Assembly: GCF_001677475.2 (NCBI RefSeq)
Contig: NZ_CP015229.1
DNA: 64,000 nt
Origin: Escherichia coli
GTDB lineage: Bacteria > Pseudomonadota > Gammaproteobacteria > Enterobacterales > Enterobacteriaceae
Reading direction: 5' to 3' (one strand)
Under the pieces are notes generated by a model. That model did not search any database and was not told the DNA's origin. It was given only the letters and a program-made list of their open reading frames with translations. The translations under genes were made by a program, and so were the position numbers. Positions 1-43,931 of this stretch are shown here, piece after piece. Positions within the stretch are counted from its first letter, which is position 1; the number at the start of each line of letters is the position of its first letter.

Positions 1-114
1 GATTACCGGGAAGCCGTATATCGTGAAGATGCCCGGTAAGAGCGATGAAAATGCGCAACCTTTTTTACATACGTTAATTGCGCAGACGGATAAAACAGTG
101 CCTGCGCAATAATC

Positions 115-1026
115 TTAAATCCCTGCCCCCTGGCTAAAATGCTCTTCCCCAAACACCCCGGTAGAAAGGTAGCGATCGCCGCGATCGCAGATGATCGCGA
201 CCACCACCGCGCCGGGGTTAGCTTTTGCCACGCGCAGTGCTCCGGCAACCGCGCCGCCAGAGCTGACGCCACAGAATATTCCTTCCCGCACTGCCAGTTC
301 GCGCATGGTGTTTTCTGCATCGCGCTGATGAATATCCAGCACCTCATCCACCAGCGAAGCGTTGAAAATCCCCGGCAGATATTCCGCAGGCCAGCGGCGA
401 ATGCCGGGAATGCTACTGCCCTCTTCCGGCTGCAGGCCAACAATGGTCACCGGTTTGGATTGTTCGCGCATAAAGCGTGAAACGCCGGTGATAGTGCCGG
501 TTGTTCCCATGCTGGAGACAAAATGGGTAATGCGCCCGCCAGTTTGCTGCCAGATTTCCGGCCCGGTGGTAGTATAATGGGCGTAGGGATTATCAGGATT
601 ATTGAACTGATCGAGCAGCTTTCCTTCACCACGATTCGCCATTTCAAGCGCCAGATCGCGCGCACCTTCCATGCCCTGCTCTTTGGTGACAAGAATCAGT
701 TCCGCACCATAAGCACGCATCGCCGCACGGCGTTCCTGGCTCATGTTGTCGGGCATCAGCAATTTCATGCGATAGCCTTTAAGCGCGGCAATCATTGCCA
801 GCGCAATGCCGGTGTTACCACTGGTGGCTTCGATCAGCACGTCACCCGGTTTAATTTCCCCGCGCTTTTCCGCCTCGACGATCATCGAAAGTGCCGCACG
901 ATCTTTTACCGAACCTGCCGGGTTATTGCCTTCCAGTTTCAACCAGACTTCACTGCCGTTATTCGGCCCCATTCGCTGCAACTTCACCAGAGGCGTATTG
1001 CCAATTGTTTGTTCTAATGTACTCAC
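115..1026 (-). CDS. cysM: Cysteine synthase B (O-acetylserine sulfhydrylase B); GTG start inside the longer six-frame ORF
   Basis: Translation from VSTLEQTIGNTPLVKL matches CysM over the full 303 aa; last gene of the cysPUWAM cluster. Confidence 0.93.
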   Translation of the reverse strand: MSTLEQTIGNTPLVKLQRMGPNNGSEVWLKLEGNNPAGSVKDRAALSMIVEAEKRGEIKPGDVLIEATSGNTGIALAMIAALKGYRMKLLMPDNMSQERRAAMRAYGAELILVTKEQGMEGARDLALEMANRGEGKLLDQFNNPDNPYAHYTTTGPEIWQQTGGRITHFVSSMGTTGTITGVSRFMREQSKPVTIVGLQPEEGSSIPGIRRWPAEYLPGIFNASLVDEVLDIHQRDAENTMRELAVREGIFCGVSSGGAVAGALRVAKANPGAVVVAIICDRGDRYLSTGVFGEEHFSQGAGI

Positions 1027-1049
1027 GATCTCTATCCATACGTGGTGTT

Positions 1050-1088
1050 GCCTGATGCGACGCTTGCGCGTCTTATCAGGCCTACAGG
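1050..1088. repeat. REP (repetitive extragenic palindromic) element
   Basis: gcctgatgcgacg...cgtcttatcaggcctaca matches the enterobacterial REP consensus; lies between cysA and cysM. Confidence 0.65.
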
Positions 1089-1110
1089 TTACAAACCTTG
1101 CCATTAAAAA

Positions 1111-1138
1111 GCCCGGATCGCGGGAAGCGCCTCCGGGC
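1111..1138 (-). terminator. GC-rich hairpin with a U-run after it on the minus strand; possible partial terminator or attenuator between cysA and cysM
   Basis: gcccgga / tccgggc form a 7-bp stem; minus-strand transcript then reads cuuuuuaaugg. Confidence 0.35.
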
Positions 1139-1159
1139 GTTTAACATTCACTCAACCTA

Positions 1160-2257
1160 TCAGGCGCTTTGTGCGAGAGCAAGTTCCTCATCGCGGGTTT
1201 CAATACGCTCGTCGCCGTTATACAGCCGCGCATGTTGCAGACCAACGAATAAACGCTCGCCACGTTGCGGGGCGTCGTCGCCGTGCATCACGACCGTCAG
1301 CGCTTCGTTGTACCACCCCAGCGGCTGCACGACTAATTGGGTGTAGTGGCCTTTCGGGCTGGCTTCCAGTACCTGTACCGGCAGCGGCGAATCGAGGCTG
1401 GTACGGCGGCTGATATCCACTTCCCACGGACGCAGGAAGAGATCCACCGGCCCCTGATACGCAGGTGTATAGCCCAGCGGCCAGCGATGTGCGCCAACAT
1501 GGAACTGCCCGCCGCGAATGGTTCCCTGCAGGCGGTTCACTTCGCCCATAAATTCGAGTACAAAACGGGTCGCTGGTTCGCGCCATACCTGGTCCGGTGC
1601 ATCAGCCTGCTCGATATTGCCCTGGCTCATCACCACTACACGATCGGCTACTTCGGTCGCTTCTTCCTGGTCATGGGTCACAAACACGCTGGTGAATTTC
1701 AGCTCTTCATGTAACTGACGCAGCCAGCGACGCAGCTCTTTACGCACCTGCGCATCCAGCGCGCCAAACGGTTCATCAAGCAGCAGAATTTGCGGTTCTA
1801 CAGCCAGCGCGCGCGCCAGCGCTACACGCTGTTTCTGGCCGCCGGAAAGCTGCGCCGGATAACGATCCGCCAGATGGGCAAGCTGCACCATCTCCAGCAA
1901 TTTTGTCACTTTCGCTTTGATCGCCGCGGCATTCGGGCGCTCGCGACGCGGCAGCACCGTCAGGCCAAAAGCGATATTGTCGAACACCGTCATATGACGG
2001 AATAGCGCGTAATGCTGGAACACGAAACCGACTTTACGGTCCCTCGCGTGCAGACGGCTGACATCGGTACCGTGAAAGCGAATTTGTCCGCTGGTTTGAT
2101 GCTCCAGCCCGGCAATAATGCGCAGCAGCGTGGTTTTCCCGGAACCGGACGGCCCCAGCAACGCGACCATCTGACCAGAAGGAATATCCAGTGAGATATC
2201 GTTCAGCACCTGGGTGCGACCAAACGACTTCTTAATATTGGCAATCTCAATGCTCAT
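1160..2257 (-). CDS. cysA: Sulfate/thiosulfate ABC transporter ATP-binding protein
   Basis: 365 aa with Walker [10 protein letters not shown] and ABC signature LSGGQKQR; matches CysA and its operon position. Confidence 0.95.
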
Positions 2258-3122
2258 GATGCTCCTCCTGCTGCGCGCGTTTTTCCTGATTCTCCAGGCG
2301 CCACTGCAACATACTCTTTAAAAACAAGGTGATAATCGCCATCAGCGTCAACAGCGCGGCGGCGGTAAAGGAGCCGACGGTGTTGTAGTCCTGCTCCAGC
2401 AATTCAATCTGTAACGGCAGCGACAGGGTTTCACCGCGAATCGAGCCGGAAACCACCGATACCGCGCCAAACTCGCCAATCGCGCGGGCGTTGGTCAGCA
2501 CCACGCCGTAAAGCAGCGCCCAGCGAATATTCGGTAATGTGACGCGACGGAACATCTGCCAGCCGGACGCGCCAAGCAAAATCGCCGCTTCGTCCTCCTG
2601 GCTGCCCTGGCTTAACATCACCGGCACCAGCTCGCGCACCACAAATGGACACGTCACGAAGATGGTGACCAGCACCATTCCCGGCCACGAGAACATAATT
2701 TGCAGGTTATGCTCGTCGAGCCAACCGCCCAGCGGGCCATTAGAGCCGTAGAACAGCAGATACACCAGACCGGCAACCACCGGCGATACGGCAAACGGAA
2801 TGTCCAGTAGCGTCAGCAGTAACTGGCGTCCAGGGAAGTTAAAGCGCGTCACCAGCCAGGCCAGCAGAATGCCGAACACCAGGTTCACCGGCACGGCAAT
2901 CAGCGCAATCATCACCGTCAGCCAGATGGCGTGCAGCATGTCCGGGTCAGCCAGATTCTGTATAACTGGCATCAGCCCTTTGCTGAACGCCTGTATGAAG
3001 ATATAAATCATCGGCACCAGCAGGATGAACGCCGATACCAGCATCCCGATGCCAATCAGAAACCATTTGCCCCAGTTAATCGGGCGCGCGTCATAACGCT
3101 TCAATTGTGTCACTTCCGCCAT
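2247..3122 (-). CDS. cysW: Sulfate/thiosulfate ABC transporter permease
   Basis: 291-aa polytopic membrane protein; position and sequence match CysW; overlaps cysA start by 11 nt. Confidence 0.93.
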
Positions 3123-3955
3123 TAATGACCTACCACACGCCGACCAAAGCGACTTTGCAGAGTGTTAATTGAGAACAGCAGCATCAGGGATGCCGCGAGG
3201 ATCACCGAAGCAATCGCGCTCGCCGCCGGGTAATCAAACTCCTGCAAGCGCACAAAAATCATCAGCGACGTAACTTCCGTCTTCCAGGCGATGTTCCCGG
3301 CGATAAATATCACCGCGCCAAACTCACCAAGACTACGGGTAAACGACAGCGCAATACCGGCAATCAGCGCCGGAGAGAGTTCTGGCAGCACCACTTTGCA
3401 GAAGCTCTGCCAGCGCGTTGCACCGAGCGTTTCTGCCGCTTCTTCATATTCCGGCCCTAACTCTTCCAGCACCGGCTGCACGGTACGCACTACAAACGGA
3501 ATGCTGGTAAAGGCCATCGCCACCGCAATCCCCAGCCAGGTATAGGTGACTTTGATATCAAACTTCGCCAGCCATTCACCGTAAAAACCGTTCACGGAAA
3601 AGAGCGAGGCCAGCGTTAAACCGGCCACTGCCGTTGGCAGCGCAAAGGGTAAATCCATCAGCGCATCAAGCAGCGTGCGGCCAGGGAAGCGATAACGGGT
3701 TAAGATCCACGCCATCAGCAGGCCGAAAACACCGTTAAAAATCGACGCGACAAACGCCGACAGCAGCGTCACTTTATAGGCCGCGACCACCTGCGGATTG
3801 GTGATCACCTCCCAGTACTGCGCCCAGCTCATCTCAGAAAGCTGCATCACCAGCGCGGAGAGCGGCAGTAACAAAATCAGGCACACAAACAGCAGACTGG
3901 TGCCGAGGCTCAGGGTAAAGCCCGGCAACACGCGTCGTGAAGAAACTGCAAACAT
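3122..3955 (-). CDS. cysU: Sulfate/thiosulfate ABC transporter permease
   Basis: 277-aa membrane protein matching CysU (CysT); stop/start overlaps with cysW and cysP. Confidence 0.93.
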   Translation of the reverse strand: MFAVSSRRVLPGFTLSLGTSLLFVCLILLLPLSALVMQLSEMSWAQYWEVITNPQVVAAYKVTLLSAFVASIFNGVFGLLMAWILTRYRFPGRTLLDALMDLPFALPTAVAGLTLASLFSVNGFYGEWLAKFDIKVTYTWLGIAVAMAFTSIPFVVRTVQPVLEELGPEYEEAAETLGATRWQSFCKVVLPELSPALIAGIALSFTRSLGEFGAVIFIAGNIAWKTEVTSLMIFVRLQEFDYPAASAIASVILAASLMLLFSINTLQSRFGRRVVGH

Positions 3956-34844: not shown

Positions 34845-34900
34845 GCCGGATGCGACGCTGACGCGTCTTATCCGGCCTACAGCGTCTTATCCGGTCTACA
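34845..34900. repeat. REP element(s) between tktB and ypfG
   Basis: gccggatgcgacgctgacgcgtcttatccggcctaca followed by a partial second copy gcgtcttatccggtctaca. Confidence 0.7.
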
Positions 34901-40778: not shown

Positions 40779-43700
40779 ATGGCGAATTTCTTTATTGATC
40801 GCCCCATTTTTGCCTGGGTGCTGGCAATCCTGTTGTGTCTGACAGGTACCCTGGCGATTTTTTCATTGCCCGTTGAACAATACCCCGATCTCGCGCCACC
40901 GAATGTGCGAGTGACCGCTAACTATCCCGGCGCATCGGCCCAGACGCTGGAAAACACCGTGACCCAGGTTATCGAGCAAAATATGACCGGCCTCGATAAT
41001 CTGATGTATATGTCGTCTCAGAGCAGTGGTACCGGTCAGGCATCTGTCACTTTAAGTTTTAAAGCAGGCACCGATCCGGACGAAGCCGTGCAGCAAGTAC
41101 AAAACCAGCTGCAATCAGCCATGCGAAAGTTACCGCAGGCGGTGCAAAATCAGGGCGTGACGGTGCGTAAAACCGGCGATACCAACATTCTGACCATTGC
41201 CTTCGTCTCTACCGATGGTTCGATGGATAAACAGGATATTGCTGATTATGTTGCCAGTAATATTCAGGACCCGTTAAGCCGCGTGAATGGCGTCGGGGAT
41301 ATCGATGCCTATGGTTCGCAATATTCCATGCGTATCTGGCTGGACCCGGCGAAACTCAACAGTTTCCAGATGACGGCTAAAGATGTCACTGATGCCATTG
41401 AGTCACAGAACGCGCAGATTGCGGTTGGGCAACTTGGTGGTACACCTTCCGTCGATAAGCAGGCGCTCAACGCCACCATTAACGCCCAGTCACTGCTGCA
41501 AACACCAGAACAGTTCCGCGATATCACCTTGCGGGTGAATCAGGACGGCTCAGAGGTAAGGCTGGGCGATGTCGCCACCGTCGAAATGGGGGCGGAGAAA
41601 TACGATTATCTTAGCCGCTTCAATGGTAAACCAGCCTCCGGGCTGGGGGTAAAACTGGCCTCCGGCGCGAACGAAATGGCGACAGCGGAGCTGGTACTCA
41701 ATCGTCTCGACGAGCTGGCGCAGTATTTTCCACACGGACTGGAATACAAGGTGGCGTATGAAACCACCTCGTTTGTTAAAGCCTCCATTGAAGACGTGGT
41801 GAAAACGCTGCTGGAAGCTATCGCCCTGGTTTTCCTCGTTATGTATCTGTTCCTGCAAAACTTCCGCGCCACGCTGATACCCACTATCGCCGTGCCGGTG
41901 GTGTTGATGGGAACCTTCTCCGTACTATACGCCTTCGGTTACAGCGTCAACACATTAACCATGTTCGCGATGGTGCTGGCGATCGGTCTGCTGGTGGATG
42001 ATGCCATCGTGGTGGTGGAAAACGTCGAACGTATTATGAGTGAGGAAGGACTCACTCCTCGCGAAGCCACACGTAAATCGATGGGGCAGATCCAAGGGGC
42101 ACTAGTCGGGATTGCGATGGTTCTTTCGGCGGTATTTGTACCAATGGCCTTCTTCGGCGGCACCACCGGTGCCATCTATCGCCAGTTCTCTATTACCATT
42201 GTTGCGGCGATGGTGCTGTCTGTACTGGTAGCGATGATCCTCACTCCGGCTCTGTGTGCCACGCTACTTAAGCCACTGAAAAAAGGTGAGCATCACGGGC
42301 AAAAAGGCTTTTTTGCCTGGTTTAACCAGATGTTTAACCGCAACGCCGAACGCTACGAAAAAGGGGTGGCGAAAATTCTCCATCGTAGCCTGCGCTGGAT
42401 TGTGATTTATGTCCTGTTGCTTGGCGGCATGGTGTTCCTGTTCCTGCGTTTGCCGACGTCGTTCTTACCGCTGGAAGACCGGGGCATGTTTACTACCTCG
42501 GTACAATTGCCCAGCGGTTCAACCCAACAACAGACCCTGAAAGTCGTTGAGCAAATCGAGAAATATTACTTCACCCATGAAAAAGACAACATCATGTCGG
42601 TGTTTGCCACCGTTGGCTCTGGCCCTGGGGGCAACGGGCAAAACGTGGCGCGAATGTTTATCCGCCTGAAAGACTGGAGCGAACGCGACAGTAAGACCGG
42701 CACCTCATTTGCCATTATTGAACGTGCAACGAAGGCGTTTAACAAGATTAAAGAAGCTCGCGTTATCGCCAGCAGCCCGCCAGCAATTAGCGGTCTTGGC
42801 AGTTCTGCGGGTTTTGATATGGAGTTGCAGGACCACGCTGGAGCGGGTCACGATGCGCTGATGGCAGCACGTAACCAGTTGCTGGCGCTGGCGGCGGAAA
42901 ACCCGGAGCTAACCCGTGTGCGCCATAACGGCCTCGACGACAGTCCGCAGTTGCAGATTGATATCGACCAGCGTAAAGCTCAGGCGCTGGGCGTTGCTAT
43001 CGACGATATTAACGACACACTGCAAACCGCCTGGGGTTCGAGCTATGTGAATGACTTTATGGATCGCGGTCGCGTGAAGAAAGTCTATGTGCAGGCAGCT
43101 GCGCCGTATCGCATGCTGCCAGATGACATTAATCTCTGGTATGTCCGAAATAAAGATGGCGGCATGGTGCCCTTCTCTGCTTTCGCGACCTCACGCTGGG
43201 AGACAGGCTCACCGCGTCTGGAACGCTATAACGGTTATTCTGCGGTTGAGATTGTTGGGGAAGCCGCACCGGGGGTCAGTACCGGTACGGCGATGGATAT
43301 TATGGAATCGTTAGTGAAGCAGCTGCCAAACGGCTTTGGTCTGGAGTGGACGGCGATGTCGTATCAGGAGCGGCTTTCCGGCGCGCAGGCTCCGGCGCTG
43401 TACGCCATTTCCTTGCTGGTGGTATTCCTGTGTCTGGCGGCGCTGTATGAAAGCTGGTCGGTGCCGTTCTCGGTAATGCTGGTCGTGCCGCTGGGGGTTA
43501 TCGGCGCGCTGCTGGCAACCTGGATGCGCGGGCTGGAAAACGACGTTTACTTCCAGGTGGGCCTGTTAACGGTCATTGGTTTATCGGCGAAAAACGCCAT
43601 CCTGATCGTCGAGTTTGCTAACGAGATGAACCAAAAAGGCCACGACCTGTTTGAAGCGACGCTCCACGCCTGCCGTCAGCGTTTACGCCCGATTCTGATG

Positions 43701-43892
43701 ACCTCGCTGGCATTTATCTTCGGCGTATTGCCAATGGCAACCAGCACGGGTGCCGGTTCCGGTGGTCAGCATGCGGTGGGTACTGGCGTAATGGGCGGGA
43801 TGATTTCGGCCACTATTCTGGCTATTTACTTCGTGCCGCTGTTCTTTGTGCTGGTGCGCCGCCGCTTCCCGCTGAAGCCGCGCCCGGAATAA
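40779..43892 (+). CDS. acrD: RND-family aminoglycoside/multidrug efflux pump
   Basis: 1037 aa, 12-TMS RND transporter; matches AcrD. Confidence 0.96.
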
Positions 43893-43899
43893 GCAATAA

Positions 43900-43931
43900 A
43901 AAAGGCGACATGCCAATGTGTCGCCTTTTTC
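43900..43931. terminator. Bidirectional rho-independent terminator (acrD on plus, ypfM on minus)
   Basis: aaaaaggcgaca-tgccaatg-tgtcgccttttt: perfect stem flanked by an A-run and a T-run. Confidence 0.75.

What the first reader, a model, noticed from the sequence alone, without database searches (positions are those of the whole stretch)
1050..1138. REP plus terminator-like hairpin inside the cysPUWAM operon
The 133-bp cysA-cysM spacer holds a REP palindrome and a separate 7-bp GC stem followed by a U-run on the coding strand. This could partially terminate transcription before cysM or protect upstream mRNA from 3' exonucleases, uncoupling cysM expression from the transporter genes.
Basis: partly seen in the sequence, partly recalled or inferred. 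Interest (0 to 1): 0.3.

Follow-up and report, generated by a model that had tools for sequence, protein, structure and literature searches.

The report
Promoter, terminator hairpin and REP before cysM
The gap between the E. coli genes cysA and cysM holds a REP repeat and a terminator-like hairpin as reported, plus an overlooked conserved promoter on the cysA stop codon, so cysM appears to be largely its own transcription unit rather than the tail of cysPUWAM.

Summary
The window is E. coli and the genes lie on the minus strand. The 133-nt cysA-cysM spacer (1027-1159) holds a 7-bp GC stem (1138-1132 / 1117-1111) followed by U5 (1110-1106), then a REP (1085-1050).

- **Hairpin:** It is single-copy in E. 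coli. A terminator-like hairpin occurs on the coding strand in 42 of 55 Enterobacterales spacers, against 1 on the opposite strand and about 1 in shuffles. Stem sequences differ between genera.
- **REP:** It sits in a roughly 65-nt insertion seen here only in Escherichia and one Pseudocitrobacter. It lies downstream of the hairpin, so it cannot protect transcripts that end there.
A conserved extended -10 promoter overlaps the cysA stop codon (TTGCTC-17 bp-TGaTAGGTT). A published SMRT-Cappable-seq table places a cysM-only start site at K-12 2539704, which is window 1147, the position I predicted from the motif before finding the table. The same table lists cysP-initiated units as cysPUWA without cysM.

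Most likely, the hairpin ends most cysPUWA transcripts, and cysM is made from its own promoter by leaking through the same hairpin. Termination efficiency has not been measured. This is a new member of a known kind and of modest interest.

The parts
1160..2257 (-). cysA coding sequence; the stop codon TGA is at 1162-1160
   Evidence: ORF list; RefSeq annotation of the identical strain GF43
1177..1182 (-). Putative -35 element TTGCTC of the cysM promoter, inside the last codons of cysA, 17 bp from the -10 hexamer
   Evidence: TTG at this exact spacing in 43 of 60 loci. The synonymous third-codon base at -34 is T in 44 of 59 loci, against a 22% background.
1154..1162 (-). Extended -10 element TGaTAGGTT. 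The TG is the first two bases of the cysA stop codon; the hexamer TAGGTT is at 1159-1154.
   Evidence: TGA-TA-N-N-TT is conserved across 59 Enterobacterales loci, while neighbouring spacer positions are not. It is invariant in 8 Escherichia sequences.
1147..1147 (-). Transcription start site of a cysM-only transcript (an A, 7 nt after the -10 hexamer)
   Evidence: The SMRT-Cappable-seq operon table lists b2421 alone with TSS 2539704 reverse, labelled 'novel'. 2539704 - 2538557 = 1147. I predicted this position from the motif before finding the table.
1111..1138 (-). Terminator-type hairpin: 7-bp GC stem (1138-1132 / 1117-1111) enclosing a 3-bp inner stem. It starts 22 nt after the cysA stop and occupies +10 to +37 of the cysM transcript.
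   Evidence: Folds; single copy in 5425 of 5426 E. coli genomes; orthologous to the Citrobacter and Lelliottia hairpin; structural counterpart in 42 of 55 spacers
1106..1110 (-). U5 tract directly after the hairpin (U6 in E. albertii and some B2-type E. coli, through a C-to-T change at the stem base)
   Evidence: Sequence; alignment
1036..1100 (-). Roughly 65-nt segment present in Escherichia (and, with different REP content, in Pseudocitrobacter faecalis) but absent from Citrobacter and Lelliottia. It is flanked by ATGG on both sides and carries the REP and a small AGGTT/AACCT hairpin.
   Evidence: Alignment A2; spacer catalogue
1050..1085 (+). REP element (single unit, GCCTGATG...CAGGCCTAC type). 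On the mRNA it is read as its reverse complement.
115..1026 (-). cysM coding sequence (GTG start at 1026); the predicted 5' UTR is 1147-1027, 121 nt

Best explanation
The cysA-cysM spacer is a compound transcription-unit boundary rather than a passive intercistronic gap.

1. A sigma-70 extended -10 promoter (TTGCTC, 17 bp, TG-a-TAGGTT) is built over the last codons and the TGA stop codon of cysA. It starts a cysM-specific transcript at window 1147.
2. An intrinsic-terminator-type hairpin plus U-run lies 22 nt after the cysA stop, at +10 to +42 of that transcript. It ends most transcripts coming from the CysB-controlled cysP promoter, so the transporter genes and cysM are largely separate units.
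3. cysM is made by polymerases that pass this hairpin. These come mainly from its own promoter, plus whatever fraction reads through from cysP. The hairpin is therefore leaky by necessity.
4. The REP is a later insertion into the cysM 5' UTR in the Escherichia lineage. It has no conserved role, though it may modestly affect stability or translation of the cysM message.

Shown: the sequence elements, their conservation, the mapped TSS, and the cysPUWA-only and cysM-only transcript classes in one dataset. Inferred: that the hairpin actually terminates, how efficiently, and that the REP is functionally minor.
For: **Hairpin.**
- It is real, stable and strand-specific.
- It ranks 4th of 11 terminator-like hits in 128 kb of window sequence.
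- 42 of 55 Enterobacterales cysA-cysM spacers carry a positive-scoring hairpin plus T-run on the coding strand, against 1 on the reverse strand and a mean of 1.0 in dinucleotide shuffles.
- At least six unrelated stem sequences occur across genera.
- Within the Escherichia/Citrobacter/Enterobacter group, all 21 sequences keep the outer 6 bp. Two variants, GCCCGG/CCGGGC and GCCGGG/CCCGGC, differ by a compensatory swap.

**Promoter.**
- Conserved positions after the stop are TGA (55/59), +1 T (51), +2 A (51), +5 T (50) and +6 T (48). Positions +3, +4 and +7 onward are free.
- TTG lies 17 bp upstream in 43 of 60 loci.
- The synonymous site at -34 is T in 44 of 59 loci, against 22% background, while the encoded residue varies between Leu, Val and Ile.
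- Loci that use a TAA or TAG stop also lack the TANNTT motif.
- The motif and hairpin stay with cysM when the upstream gene is replaced (L014, L022).
- Analogous layouts occur after a DyP gene in Dickeya and after cysW in Pectobacterium.

**Transcripts.**
- SMRT-Cappable-seq lists cysM alone from TSS 2539704(-) and cysPUWA from TSS 2543558(-) as 'ShorterEnd'. No cysPUWAM variant is listed.

**Uncoupling.**
- In APEC delta-lsrR, cysUWA rises about 9-fold while cysM is unchanged.
- In Salmonella, cysM is unaffected when cysB, cysK, cysD and cysI rise 3-5-fold.
- One paper already lists cysPUWA and cysM as separate operons.

**No room for a downstream promoter.**
- In relatives without insertions, only 19-41 nt separate the hairpin from the cysM start codon, so cysM transcripts must cross the hairpin.

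**REP.**
- It is absent from Citrobacter, Lelliottia and most other relatives. It is inserted between the T-run and the cysM ribosome-binding region.
- It is more variable than the hairpin among Escherichia sequences.
Against: - No 3' end in or near the spacer appears in the curated Term-seq lists for LB and M63 or in the TRS tables. These tables list no 3' end for the whole operon, so they have little power here.
- 'ShorterEnd' may come from the paper's rule of using the longest read when no TTS is defined. A 4.9-kb cysPUWAM read is also harder to capture than a 1-kb cysM read.
- The U-tract has only 5 U and the hairpin has a large interior loop, so termination may be weak.
- A terminator downstream of the promoter would also cut that promoter's own output, which is an odd design.
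- The -35 and -10 hexamers each match consensus at only 3 of 6 positions, and the tool's promoter scan did not call the site.
- The loci are phylogenetically related, so counts overstate independence.
- From my memory, not verified here: RegulonDB-type annotation and classical genetics treat cysM as CysB-regulated within cysPUWAM.
Confidence: 0.55

Rival explanations
1. There is one cysPUWAM transcript. The hairpin is a partial terminator and the REP is a 3'-exonuclease barrier that stabilises the upstream cysPUWA segment. cysM is expressed only by read-through from the cysP promoter.
For: - The hairpin and REP are present and stable.
- RegulonDB lists the operon as cysPUWAM, as quoted in the SMRT-Cappable-seq table.
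- Most papers use that operon name.
- REP-dependent differential stability is an established mechanism in malEFG (background cited).
Against: - A cysM-only TSS is mapped at 2539704.
- It sits on a conserved extended -10 motif.
- cysM does not follow cysUWA or the CysB regulon in two expression studies. Fixed-fraction read-through would not produce that.
- The REP is downstream of the terminator and missing in most relatives.
Confidence: 0.12
2. The hairpin is mainly a 5'-UTR element of the cysM mRNA and terminates little. It could be a near-5'-terminal stem-loop that protects the message from 5'-end-dependent decay, with the U-rich tract acting as a ribosome-binding enhancer for a GTG-start gene with a weak Shine-Dalgarno sequence.
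For: - The hairpin stays with cysM whatever the upstream gene is.
- It lies only +5 to +19 from the predicted TSS across genera.
- In E. coli the A/U extension leaves just 2 unpaired 5' nucleotides (with the TSS).
- Full-length reads from this TSS cover cysM.
- No 3' ends are reported at the U-run.
Against: - The A/U extension does not form in Citrobacter, judged by eye from the sequences.
- The element has the full intrinsic-terminator signature, a GC stem immediately followed by a T-run, in genus after genus. A pure stabiliser would not need that.
- cysP-initiated units stop before cysM.
Confidence: 0.15
3. The hairpin is a conditional or start-site-selective gate. Either it stops mature elongation complexes arriving from cysP but is passed by complexes that initiated 10 nt upstream (for example, still carrying sigma-70 and lacking NusA), or an unknown factor controls read-through into cysM.
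For: - The promoter-then-terminator-then-gene order is conserved across the order.
- The long-read table shows the short transcript crossing the hairpin and the long one not crossing it.
- The same paper reports TSS-dependent read-through at other loci.
Against: - No alternative antiterminator fold is predicted.
- The leader is only about 42 nt long.
- The 5'-terminal ATG, which would give a leaderless leader peptide, is not conserved: E. albertii has ATC and C. werkmanii has ATA.
- Read-length bias can explain the long-read asymmetry.
- The NusA/sigma idea is my inference only.
Confidence: 0.13
4. The hairpin and U-run have no function. They are a chance palindrome or the decayed remnant of a REP-like element.
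For: - The E. coli hairpin resembles the palindromes seen as inverted pairs in Enterobacter and Pluralibacter spacers.
- Its fold z-score on its own is only -2.1.
Against: - It is strand-specific and present in 42 of 55 spacers with unrelated stems, against about 1 expected.
- It is single-copy and nearly invariant in 5425 E. coli genomes.
- It is among the four best terminator-like sites in 128 kb.
Confidence: 0.03

Closest known systems
Intercistronic REP elements of malE-malF and hisJ-hisQ, which give differential mRNA stability within an operon (Newbury, Higgins and colleagues, 1987; cited from my own knowledge, with malEF mentioned in PMC4705995)
   Same: A REP palindrome lies between a more strongly expressed upstream block and a weakly expressed distal gene of a nominal operon. 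It folds into a stable RNA hairpin.
   Different: Here the REP is a single unit placed downstream of a separate terminator hairpin and of an internal promoter, so it lies in the distal gene's 5' UTR. It is absent from most related genera while the hairpin is kept. No stabilising effect has been tested.
Internal partial terminators combined with internal promoters in complex operons, for example the rplKAJL-rpoBC attenuator and rpsU-dnaG-rpoD (from my own knowledge)
   Same: An intrinsic-terminator-type hairpin inside an annotated operon lowers distal-gene transcription. An internal promoter supplies independent expression.
   Different: Here the internal promoter sits upstream of the terminator, overlapping the preceding stop codon. 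The terminator therefore lies in the first 42 nt of the distal gene's own transcript. Efficiency has not been measured.
Operon variants and TSS-dependent read-through described by SMRT-Cappable-seq (Yan et al. 2018, PMC6131387)
   Same: This locus appears in that paper's supplementary operon table as two variants, cysM alone ('novel') and cysPUWA ('ShorterEnd'). The paper reports that read-through of one terminator can depend on where the transcript started.
   Different: The held main text does not name cysM, cysA or cysP: it was not returned by the full-text search for cysM and cysA. Searches of the held supplements for those gene names also returned nothing, because the operon table uses b-numbers. 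The promoter motif, its conservation and the hairpin are not described there, and no TTS coordinate for the spacer is in the held tables.
REP doublets (BIME/REPIN) of Enterobacteriaceae
   Same: In Enterobacter, Pluralibacter, Pseudescherichia and others, the spacer holds two inverted palindromes with CCTAC/GTAGG tails, and the second is followed by the T-run. The Citrobacter single hairpin and the E. coli hairpin align with the first of these.
   Different: The E. coli hairpin is single-copy in E. coli genomes, lacks the CTAC tail and has a diverged loop. Whether the Enterobacter-type palindrome is a genome-wide repeat was not tested here.

Membership tests
REP (repetitive extragenic palindromic) element | Imperfect palindrome of about 35 nt with GCC(T/G)GATG ... 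CATC(A/C)GGC arms and a CTAC tail | tested here: met
   1050-1085 reads GCCTGATGCGACGCTTGCGCGTCTTATCAGGCCTAC, with 14-nt arms 86% complementary. RNA fold z = -6.4.
REP (repetitive extragenic palindromic) element | Many dispersed copies per genome, in extragenic positions | tested here: met
   A median of 6 and up to 21 megablast places per E. coli genome for a query whose only repeated part is the REP. A second copy lies in the window at 34845-34880. Partial match to the REP-derived Rfam family naRNA4. The element lies between two coding sequences.
BIME (bacterial interspersed mosaic element, paired REPs) | Two or more REPs in alternating orientation with defined linker motifs | tested here: not met
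   There is only one REP unit in the E. coli spacer. Pseudocitrobacter faecalis has two at the same site.
Intrinsic (Rho-independent) terminator | GC-rich stem-loop immediately followed by a U-tract on the transcribed strand, downstream of a stop codon | tested here: met
   A 7-bp stem (6 GC pairs) plus an inner 3-bp stem, then U5, starting 22 nt after the cysA stop. Score d = 14.6, against -17.9 on the other strand. It ranks 4th in the window.
Intrinsic (Rho-independent) terminator | RNA 3' ends at the U-tract in vivo, or termination in vitro | tested here: inconclusive
   There are no 3' ends at 2539xxx in the Term-seq or TRS tables, but none for the whole operon either. The long-read table lists cysPUWA units that do not include cysM, without a TTS coordinate in the held text.
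Sigma-70 extended -10 promoter | TG at -15/-14 and a -10 hexamer with T-12, A-11 and T-7 | tested here: met
   TG-a-TAGGTT at 1162-1154. Exactly these positions are the conserved ones across 59 loci.
Sigma-70 extended -10 promoter | A 5'-triphosphate transcript start about 7 nt downstream of the hexamer | tested here: met
   The published SMRT-Cappable-seq table gives a TSS at 2539704 reverse for a cysM-only unit. This equals window 1147, 7 nt after the hexamer. One dataset only.
Sigma-70 extended -10 promoter | Promoter activity of the isolated fragment, and loss of activity on mutating -10 or TG | not testable with these tools
   This needs reporter fusions or in vitro transcription.
Leader-peptide or antiterminator-type transcription attenuator | Mutually exclusive terminator and antiterminator folds, or a conserved leader ORF overlapping the terminator | tested here: not met
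   The terminator hairpin persists in all context folds, and the one candidate competing pairing (I2) is not favoured. The ATG at the TSS, which would open a 21-codon leaderless ORF, is lost in E. albertii and C. werkmanii.

The most novel reading that the evidence does not exclude
The conserved order 'promoter on the upstream stop codon, then terminator hairpin within the first 40 nt, then cysM' is a start-site-selective gate. The same hairpin stops polymerases arriving from the strongly regulated cysP promoter but is passed by polymerases that initiated about 10 nt upstream of it, or is opened by an unknown factor. This would insulate cysM from CysB control while using a single structure.
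Probability: 0.13. Interest if true: 0.6.

Novelty: new member of a known kind. Interest (0 to 1): 0.35.

Why it matters
cysPUWAM is a textbook operon of the cysteine regulon. If cysM is mostly transcribed from its own constitutive promoter behind a terminator, several things follow:

- It explains why cysM mRNA fails to track cysUWA, cysK, cysD and cysI in expression studies.
- Operon annotations and regulon models should split the unit.
- Strain engineers who want thiosulfate-based cysteine production should not expect cysP-promoter changes to raise CysM.

The locus also shows how a promoter can be encoded across a stop codon and synonymous sites of the preceding gene, and how REPs and other small repeats repeatedly insert next to a terminator without disturbing it. 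None of this is a new kind of mechanism.

Tried and rejected
**Literature and datasets that gave nothing**

- The full-text searches returned no paper that discusses the E. coli cysA-cysM junction or a cysM promoter.
- The original sequence paper (Sirko et al. 1990) is not held. I cannot say whether it already noted the hairpin or the REP.
- The Term-seq tables of Adams 2021 list no 3' end at 2538xxx-2539xxx and do not name cysA or cysM. They list only Rho-dependent regions inside cysP and downstream of cysM.
- The TRS tables contain nothing for this locus.
- Dar & Sorek, Conway 2014 and Melamed 2016 have no held supplements.
- Thomason 2015, Li 2014, Schmidt 2016 and Melamed 2020 are not held.
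- The Cappable-seq TSS file is cut well before 2.5 Mb.

**Tool negatives**

- The built-in promoter/terminator scan found neither element, because of its thresholds: loop of at most 8 nt, and at least 4 of 6 matches per hexamer.
- Rfam has no family here apart from the partial REP match.

**Ideas rejected**

- Bidirectional terminator: the reverse strand scores -17.9.
- Antiterminator pairing between the last cysA codons and the hairpin loop (I2): not favoured in folds.
- Leaderless leader peptide starting at the TSS ATG: the ATG is not conserved.
- Tandem stop codons as the reason for TGA-TA-N-N-TT: 17 of 59 loci have TAT, and positions +5 and +6 lie outside any stop codon.
- 5'-terminal stem-loop as a universal feature: the A/U extension is E. 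coli-specific.

**Technical**

- MAFFT misaligned the 5' arms of the hairpins, so I compared stems directly from the sequences rather than with the pair-counting tool.
Full report
**1. What is in the sequence**

The window is E. coli: 501 nt around the site match strain GF43 at 100% and K-12 at 97.4%. The cys genes are on the minus strand. cysM is at 115-1026 with a GTG start, cysA at 1160-2257, and cysW, cysU and cysP follow upstream. The conversion is K-12 coordinate = window + 2538557.

Reading the coding strand 5' to 3', the elements are:

- the cysA stop codon TGA (1162-1160);
- 21 nt of unstructured sequence;
- a hairpin, GCCCGGA (1138-1132) paired with TCCGGGC (1117-1111), with a 3-bp inner stem;
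- TTTTT (1110-1106);
- a small AGGTT/AACCT hairpin;
- a REP (1085-1050);
- 23 nt, then the GTG of cysM.

**2. Is it more than chance?**

The REP folds at -23.1 kcal/mol, z = -6.4. It is a member of a repeat family. A second copy lies at 34845-34880 in the window against 0.00 expected. There are a median of six megablast places per E. coli genome. It gives a partial match to the REP-derived Rfam family naRNA4.

The hairpin is different in kind. It is single-copy in E. coli, with one place per genome, present in 5425 of 5426 genomes, and at least 99% identical in 4756 of the 5427 matching records. The built-in scan missed it because it allows loops of at most 8 nt.

I scored hairpin plus T-run combinations with the d'Aubenton-Carafa formula using ViennaRNA energies. 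Absolute values are therefore only indicative. The element scores d = 14.6, against -17.9 on the opposite strand. Across both strands of the whole 64-kb window only 11 sites score above 0. This one ranks fourth, and the top four are all intergenic.

**3. Comparative evidence for the hairpin**

A scan of one genome per species with CysM returned 80 loci from Enterobacterales and a few other gammaproteobacteria. In 59 of them cysA lies directly upstream of cysM on the same strand.

- Of the 55 spacers of at most 240 nt (54 of those loci plus the window itself), 42 carry a positive-scoring hairpin plus T-run on the coding strand. One does on the reverse strand. Dinucleotide shuffles give a mean of 1.0 and a maximum of 3.
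- The stems are unrelated between groups:
  - GCCCGG/CCGGGC or GCCGGG/CCCGGC in Escherichia, Citrobacter, Enterobacter and Lelliottia;
  - GCGGCC/GGCCGC in Cedecea, Siccibacter and Shimwellia;
  - GGGCGGG/CCCGCCC in Pantoea;
  - GGCAACCC/GGGTTGCC in Serratia;
  - GCTCATCTC/GAGATGAGC in Photorhabdus;
  - CAGCCTGG/CCAGGCTG in Tatumella.
- Structure and position are kept while sequence turns over, which is the signature of a selected RNA or terminator structure. The loci are related, so the raw counts overstate independence. The diversity of stems argues against simple inheritance.
- In relatives without insertions, the hairpin ends only 19-41 nt before the cysM start codon. That leaves no room for a promoter between them, so every cysM transcript must cross the hairpin. 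It cannot be a complete stop.

**4. The REP is a late addition**

Aligning the spacers shows that the region from the stop codon through the hairpin and T-run is orthologous between Escherichia, Citrobacter and Lelliottia. About 65 nt (window 1100-1036, bounded by ATGG on both sides) is present only in E. coli, E. albertii and Pseudocitrobacter faecalis. This segment carries the REP.

P. faecalis has two REPs at the same site, and the one resembling the E. coli REP is in the opposite orientation. REP content has therefore turned over there.

Other lineages hold other insertions at or next to the hairpin. Several Enterobacter-group genomes have inverted palindrome pairs with CCTAC/GTAGG tails. 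Yersinia and Serratia plymuthica have a longer repeat-like insert, and in S. plymuthica the hairpin sequence appears on both sides of it.

Among eight Escherichia sequences the hairpin stem changes only by a G-C to G-U substitution that also lengthens the U-run. The REP shows several stem and loop changes.

Because the REP lies downstream of the terminator, transcripts that end at the U-run do not contain it. It cannot be what protects their 3' ends.

**5. An overlooked promoter**

I lined up the loci at the cysA stop codon, and the nucleotides just after it proved conserved in a specific pattern:

| Position | Conserved base | Loci |
|---|---|---|
| stop codon | TGA | 55 of 59 |
| +1 | T | 51 |
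| +2 | A | 51 |
| +5 | T | 50 |
| +6 | T | 48 |
| +3, +4, +7 onward | none | unconstrained |

- TG-n-TA-n-n-T-T is the geometry of an extended -10 promoter: TG at -15/-14, T-12, A-11 and T-7.
- The four loci with a TAA or TAG stop also lack the motif.
- Tandem stop codons do not explain the pattern. 17 of 59 loci have TAT, and positions +5 and +6 lie outside any stop codon.
- Seventeen base pairs upstream, inside cysA, TTG occurs in 43 of 60 loci.
- The only free site in that TTG is a third codon position. It is T in 44 of 59 loci, against 22% for comparable codons in the last 60 codons of cysA, while the encoded residue varies between Leu, Val and Ile.
- In E. coli the promoter reads TTGCTC (1182-1177), 17 bp, TG-a-TAGGTT (1162-1154).

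From this I predicted a start site near window 1147, which is K-12 2539704, and recorded it in the notebook.

I then searched the supplementary tables of the SMRT-Cappable-seq study, which captures 5'-triphosphate ends with full-length reads. The search found the row 'b2421, 2539704, reverse, novel', meaning a cysM-only unit starting at exactly that base. The next row is 'b2425|b2424|b2423|b2422, 2543558, reverse, ShorterEnd': cysP-initiated units covering cysPUWA but not cysM. No cysPUWAM variant is listed. The coordinates are in NC_000913.3 numbering, because the neighbouring pdxK and cysP start sites fit that record.

The motif and hairpin also stay with cysM when the upstream gene changes.

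- In two genomes a large unrelated ORF ends on the same ...CTGATAGGTT (or ...GCTT) sequence, with the hairpin intact.
- In Dickeya, TATAAC overlaps the stop codon of a DyP-type gene and is followed by a hairpin and T7.
- In Pectobacterium, TAACTT overlaps the cysW stop codon and is followed by a hairpin and T7, 19 nt before cysM.

**6. How it most likely works**

*Shown:* the elements, their conservation, one mapped TSS, and two transcript classes.

*Inferred:* the hairpin terminates most transcripts from the CysB-activated cysP promoter after cysA. cysM is produced by polymerases that get past the hairpin, mainly those starting at its own promoter 10 nt upstream of the stem. This makes cysM expression low and largely independent of the regulon's main switch.

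This fits two independent expression reports. In an avian pathogenic E. coli lsrR mutant, cysUWA rose about nine-fold while cysM did not change. In Salmonella, cysM did not respond when cysB, cysK, cysD and cysI rose three- to five-fold. A fixed read-through fraction from one promoter would have given equal fold changes. One paper already lists cysPUWA and cysM as separate operons, without evidence.

*Weak points:*

- No 3' end at the U-run has been reported. However, the Term-seq and TRS tables I could read show no 3' end for the entire operon, so they are uninformative.
- The 'ShorterEnd' label may reflect the longest-read rule and length bias.
- The U-tract is short.
- A terminator placed after the promoter also taxes that promoter's own output.

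*Alternatives considered:*

- The hairpin could chiefly be a 5'-UTR stabiliser or translation element of cysM. In E. coli, its A/U-extended form leaves only two unpaired 5' nucleotides.
- It could act as a start-site-selective or factor-controlled gate.
- I found no alternative antiterminator fold. The ATG that happens to sit at the TSS is not conserved. A classical attenuator is therefore unlikely.

**7. Comparison with known systems, and novelty**

The REP meets the definition of a REP but not of a BIME. The hairpin meets the sequence definition of an intrinsic terminator, and the functional criterion is untested. The promoter meets the sequence and TSS criteria of an extended -10 promoter, and reporter activity is untested.

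The nearest analogues are:

- intercistronic REPs of malEFG and hisJQMP, where the REP itself sets differential stability;
- internal terminator-plus-promoter arrangements such as rplKAJL-rpoBC and rpsU-dnaG-rpoD.

The unusual aspect here is the order: the promoter sits across the stop codon, and the terminator lies within the first 42 nt of the new transcript. That order is conserved across the order Enterobacterales.

The start site exists in a 2018 supplementary table. Neither the full-text searches nor the supplement searches by gene name returned anything that discusses this junction or an E. coli cysM promoter.

This is a new, well-supported example of a known kind of sub-operon architecture, not a new mechanism. 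Interest is modest. It corrects a textbook operon and explains stray expression data.

Noticed in passing
window 1-117 (and L002 1845-2216): In this strain yfeS is absent. yfeK and cysM converge with only 2 nt between their stop codons, so cysM has no room for its own terminator. K-12 has yfeS and a 188-nt gap there. Adams et al. list a Rho-dependent termination region antisense to yfeS at K-12 2538040(-), downstream of cysM.
   Followed up: partly
K-12 2543521 (-), about window 4964, start of cysP: The published Rho-dependence table shows a very strong Rho termination signal (score 17, p = 6e-46) a few nucleotides into cysP in LB. This suggests premature Rho termination of the operon when it is poorly translated or repressed.
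   Followed up: no
L053 (Serratia plymuthica) 2268-2500; L035 and L039 (Yersinia) spacers: A repeat-like insert of about 150 nt sits inside the cysA-cysM spacer. In S. plymuthica the terminator stem GGCAACCCCAGGGTTGCC occurs on both sides of it, as if the element had inserted into the hairpin and duplicated it.
   Followed up: no
L022 4-2433 and L014 upstream of cysM: A large ORF of at least 809 aa, unrelated to CysA (no tblastn match) and which I did not identify with any search, replaces cysA directly upstream of cysM. It ends on what looks like the last few codons and stop codon of cysA (...GTAGACCTGACCCACGCAGAC TGA TAGGTT). The putative -35, -10 and hairpin are kept.
   Followed up: partly
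L061 (Pectobacterium) 731-3382; L045 (Dickeya) 1367-3382: cysM follows cysW directly in Pectobacterium and a DyP-type peroxidase gene in Dickeya, not cysA. In both, a -10-like hexamer overlaps the upstream stop codon and a strong hairpin plus T7 precedes cysM by 19-38 nt.
   Followed up: partly
window 1147-1082 (-): The mapped TSS coincides with an ATG (ATG TTA AAC GCC ...). This opens a 21-codon ORF that runs through the hairpin to TAG at 1084-1082, potentially a leaderless mini-ORF. The ATG is not conserved in E. albertii or C. werkmanii, so I treat it as a coincidence.
   Followed up: yes
window 34845-34880 (+): A second REP of the GCCGGATG type, with 2 mismatches to the cysA-cysM REP pattern.
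   Followed up: no
window 43904-43925, both strands: A hairpin scores as a terminator on both strands (d = 18.9 on minus, 6.6 on plus), just past the end of a long + strand ORF (40779-43892). It is a likely bidirectional terminator.
   Followed up: no
L005 (Pseudocitrobacter faecalis) and L004 (Pseudocitrobacter MAG): CysM is 97% identical to the E. coli protein in both. The 5' half of the L005 spacer is almost identical to E. coli, which is closer than expected for another genus. This suggests recent transfer or a taxonomic oddity.
   Followed up: no
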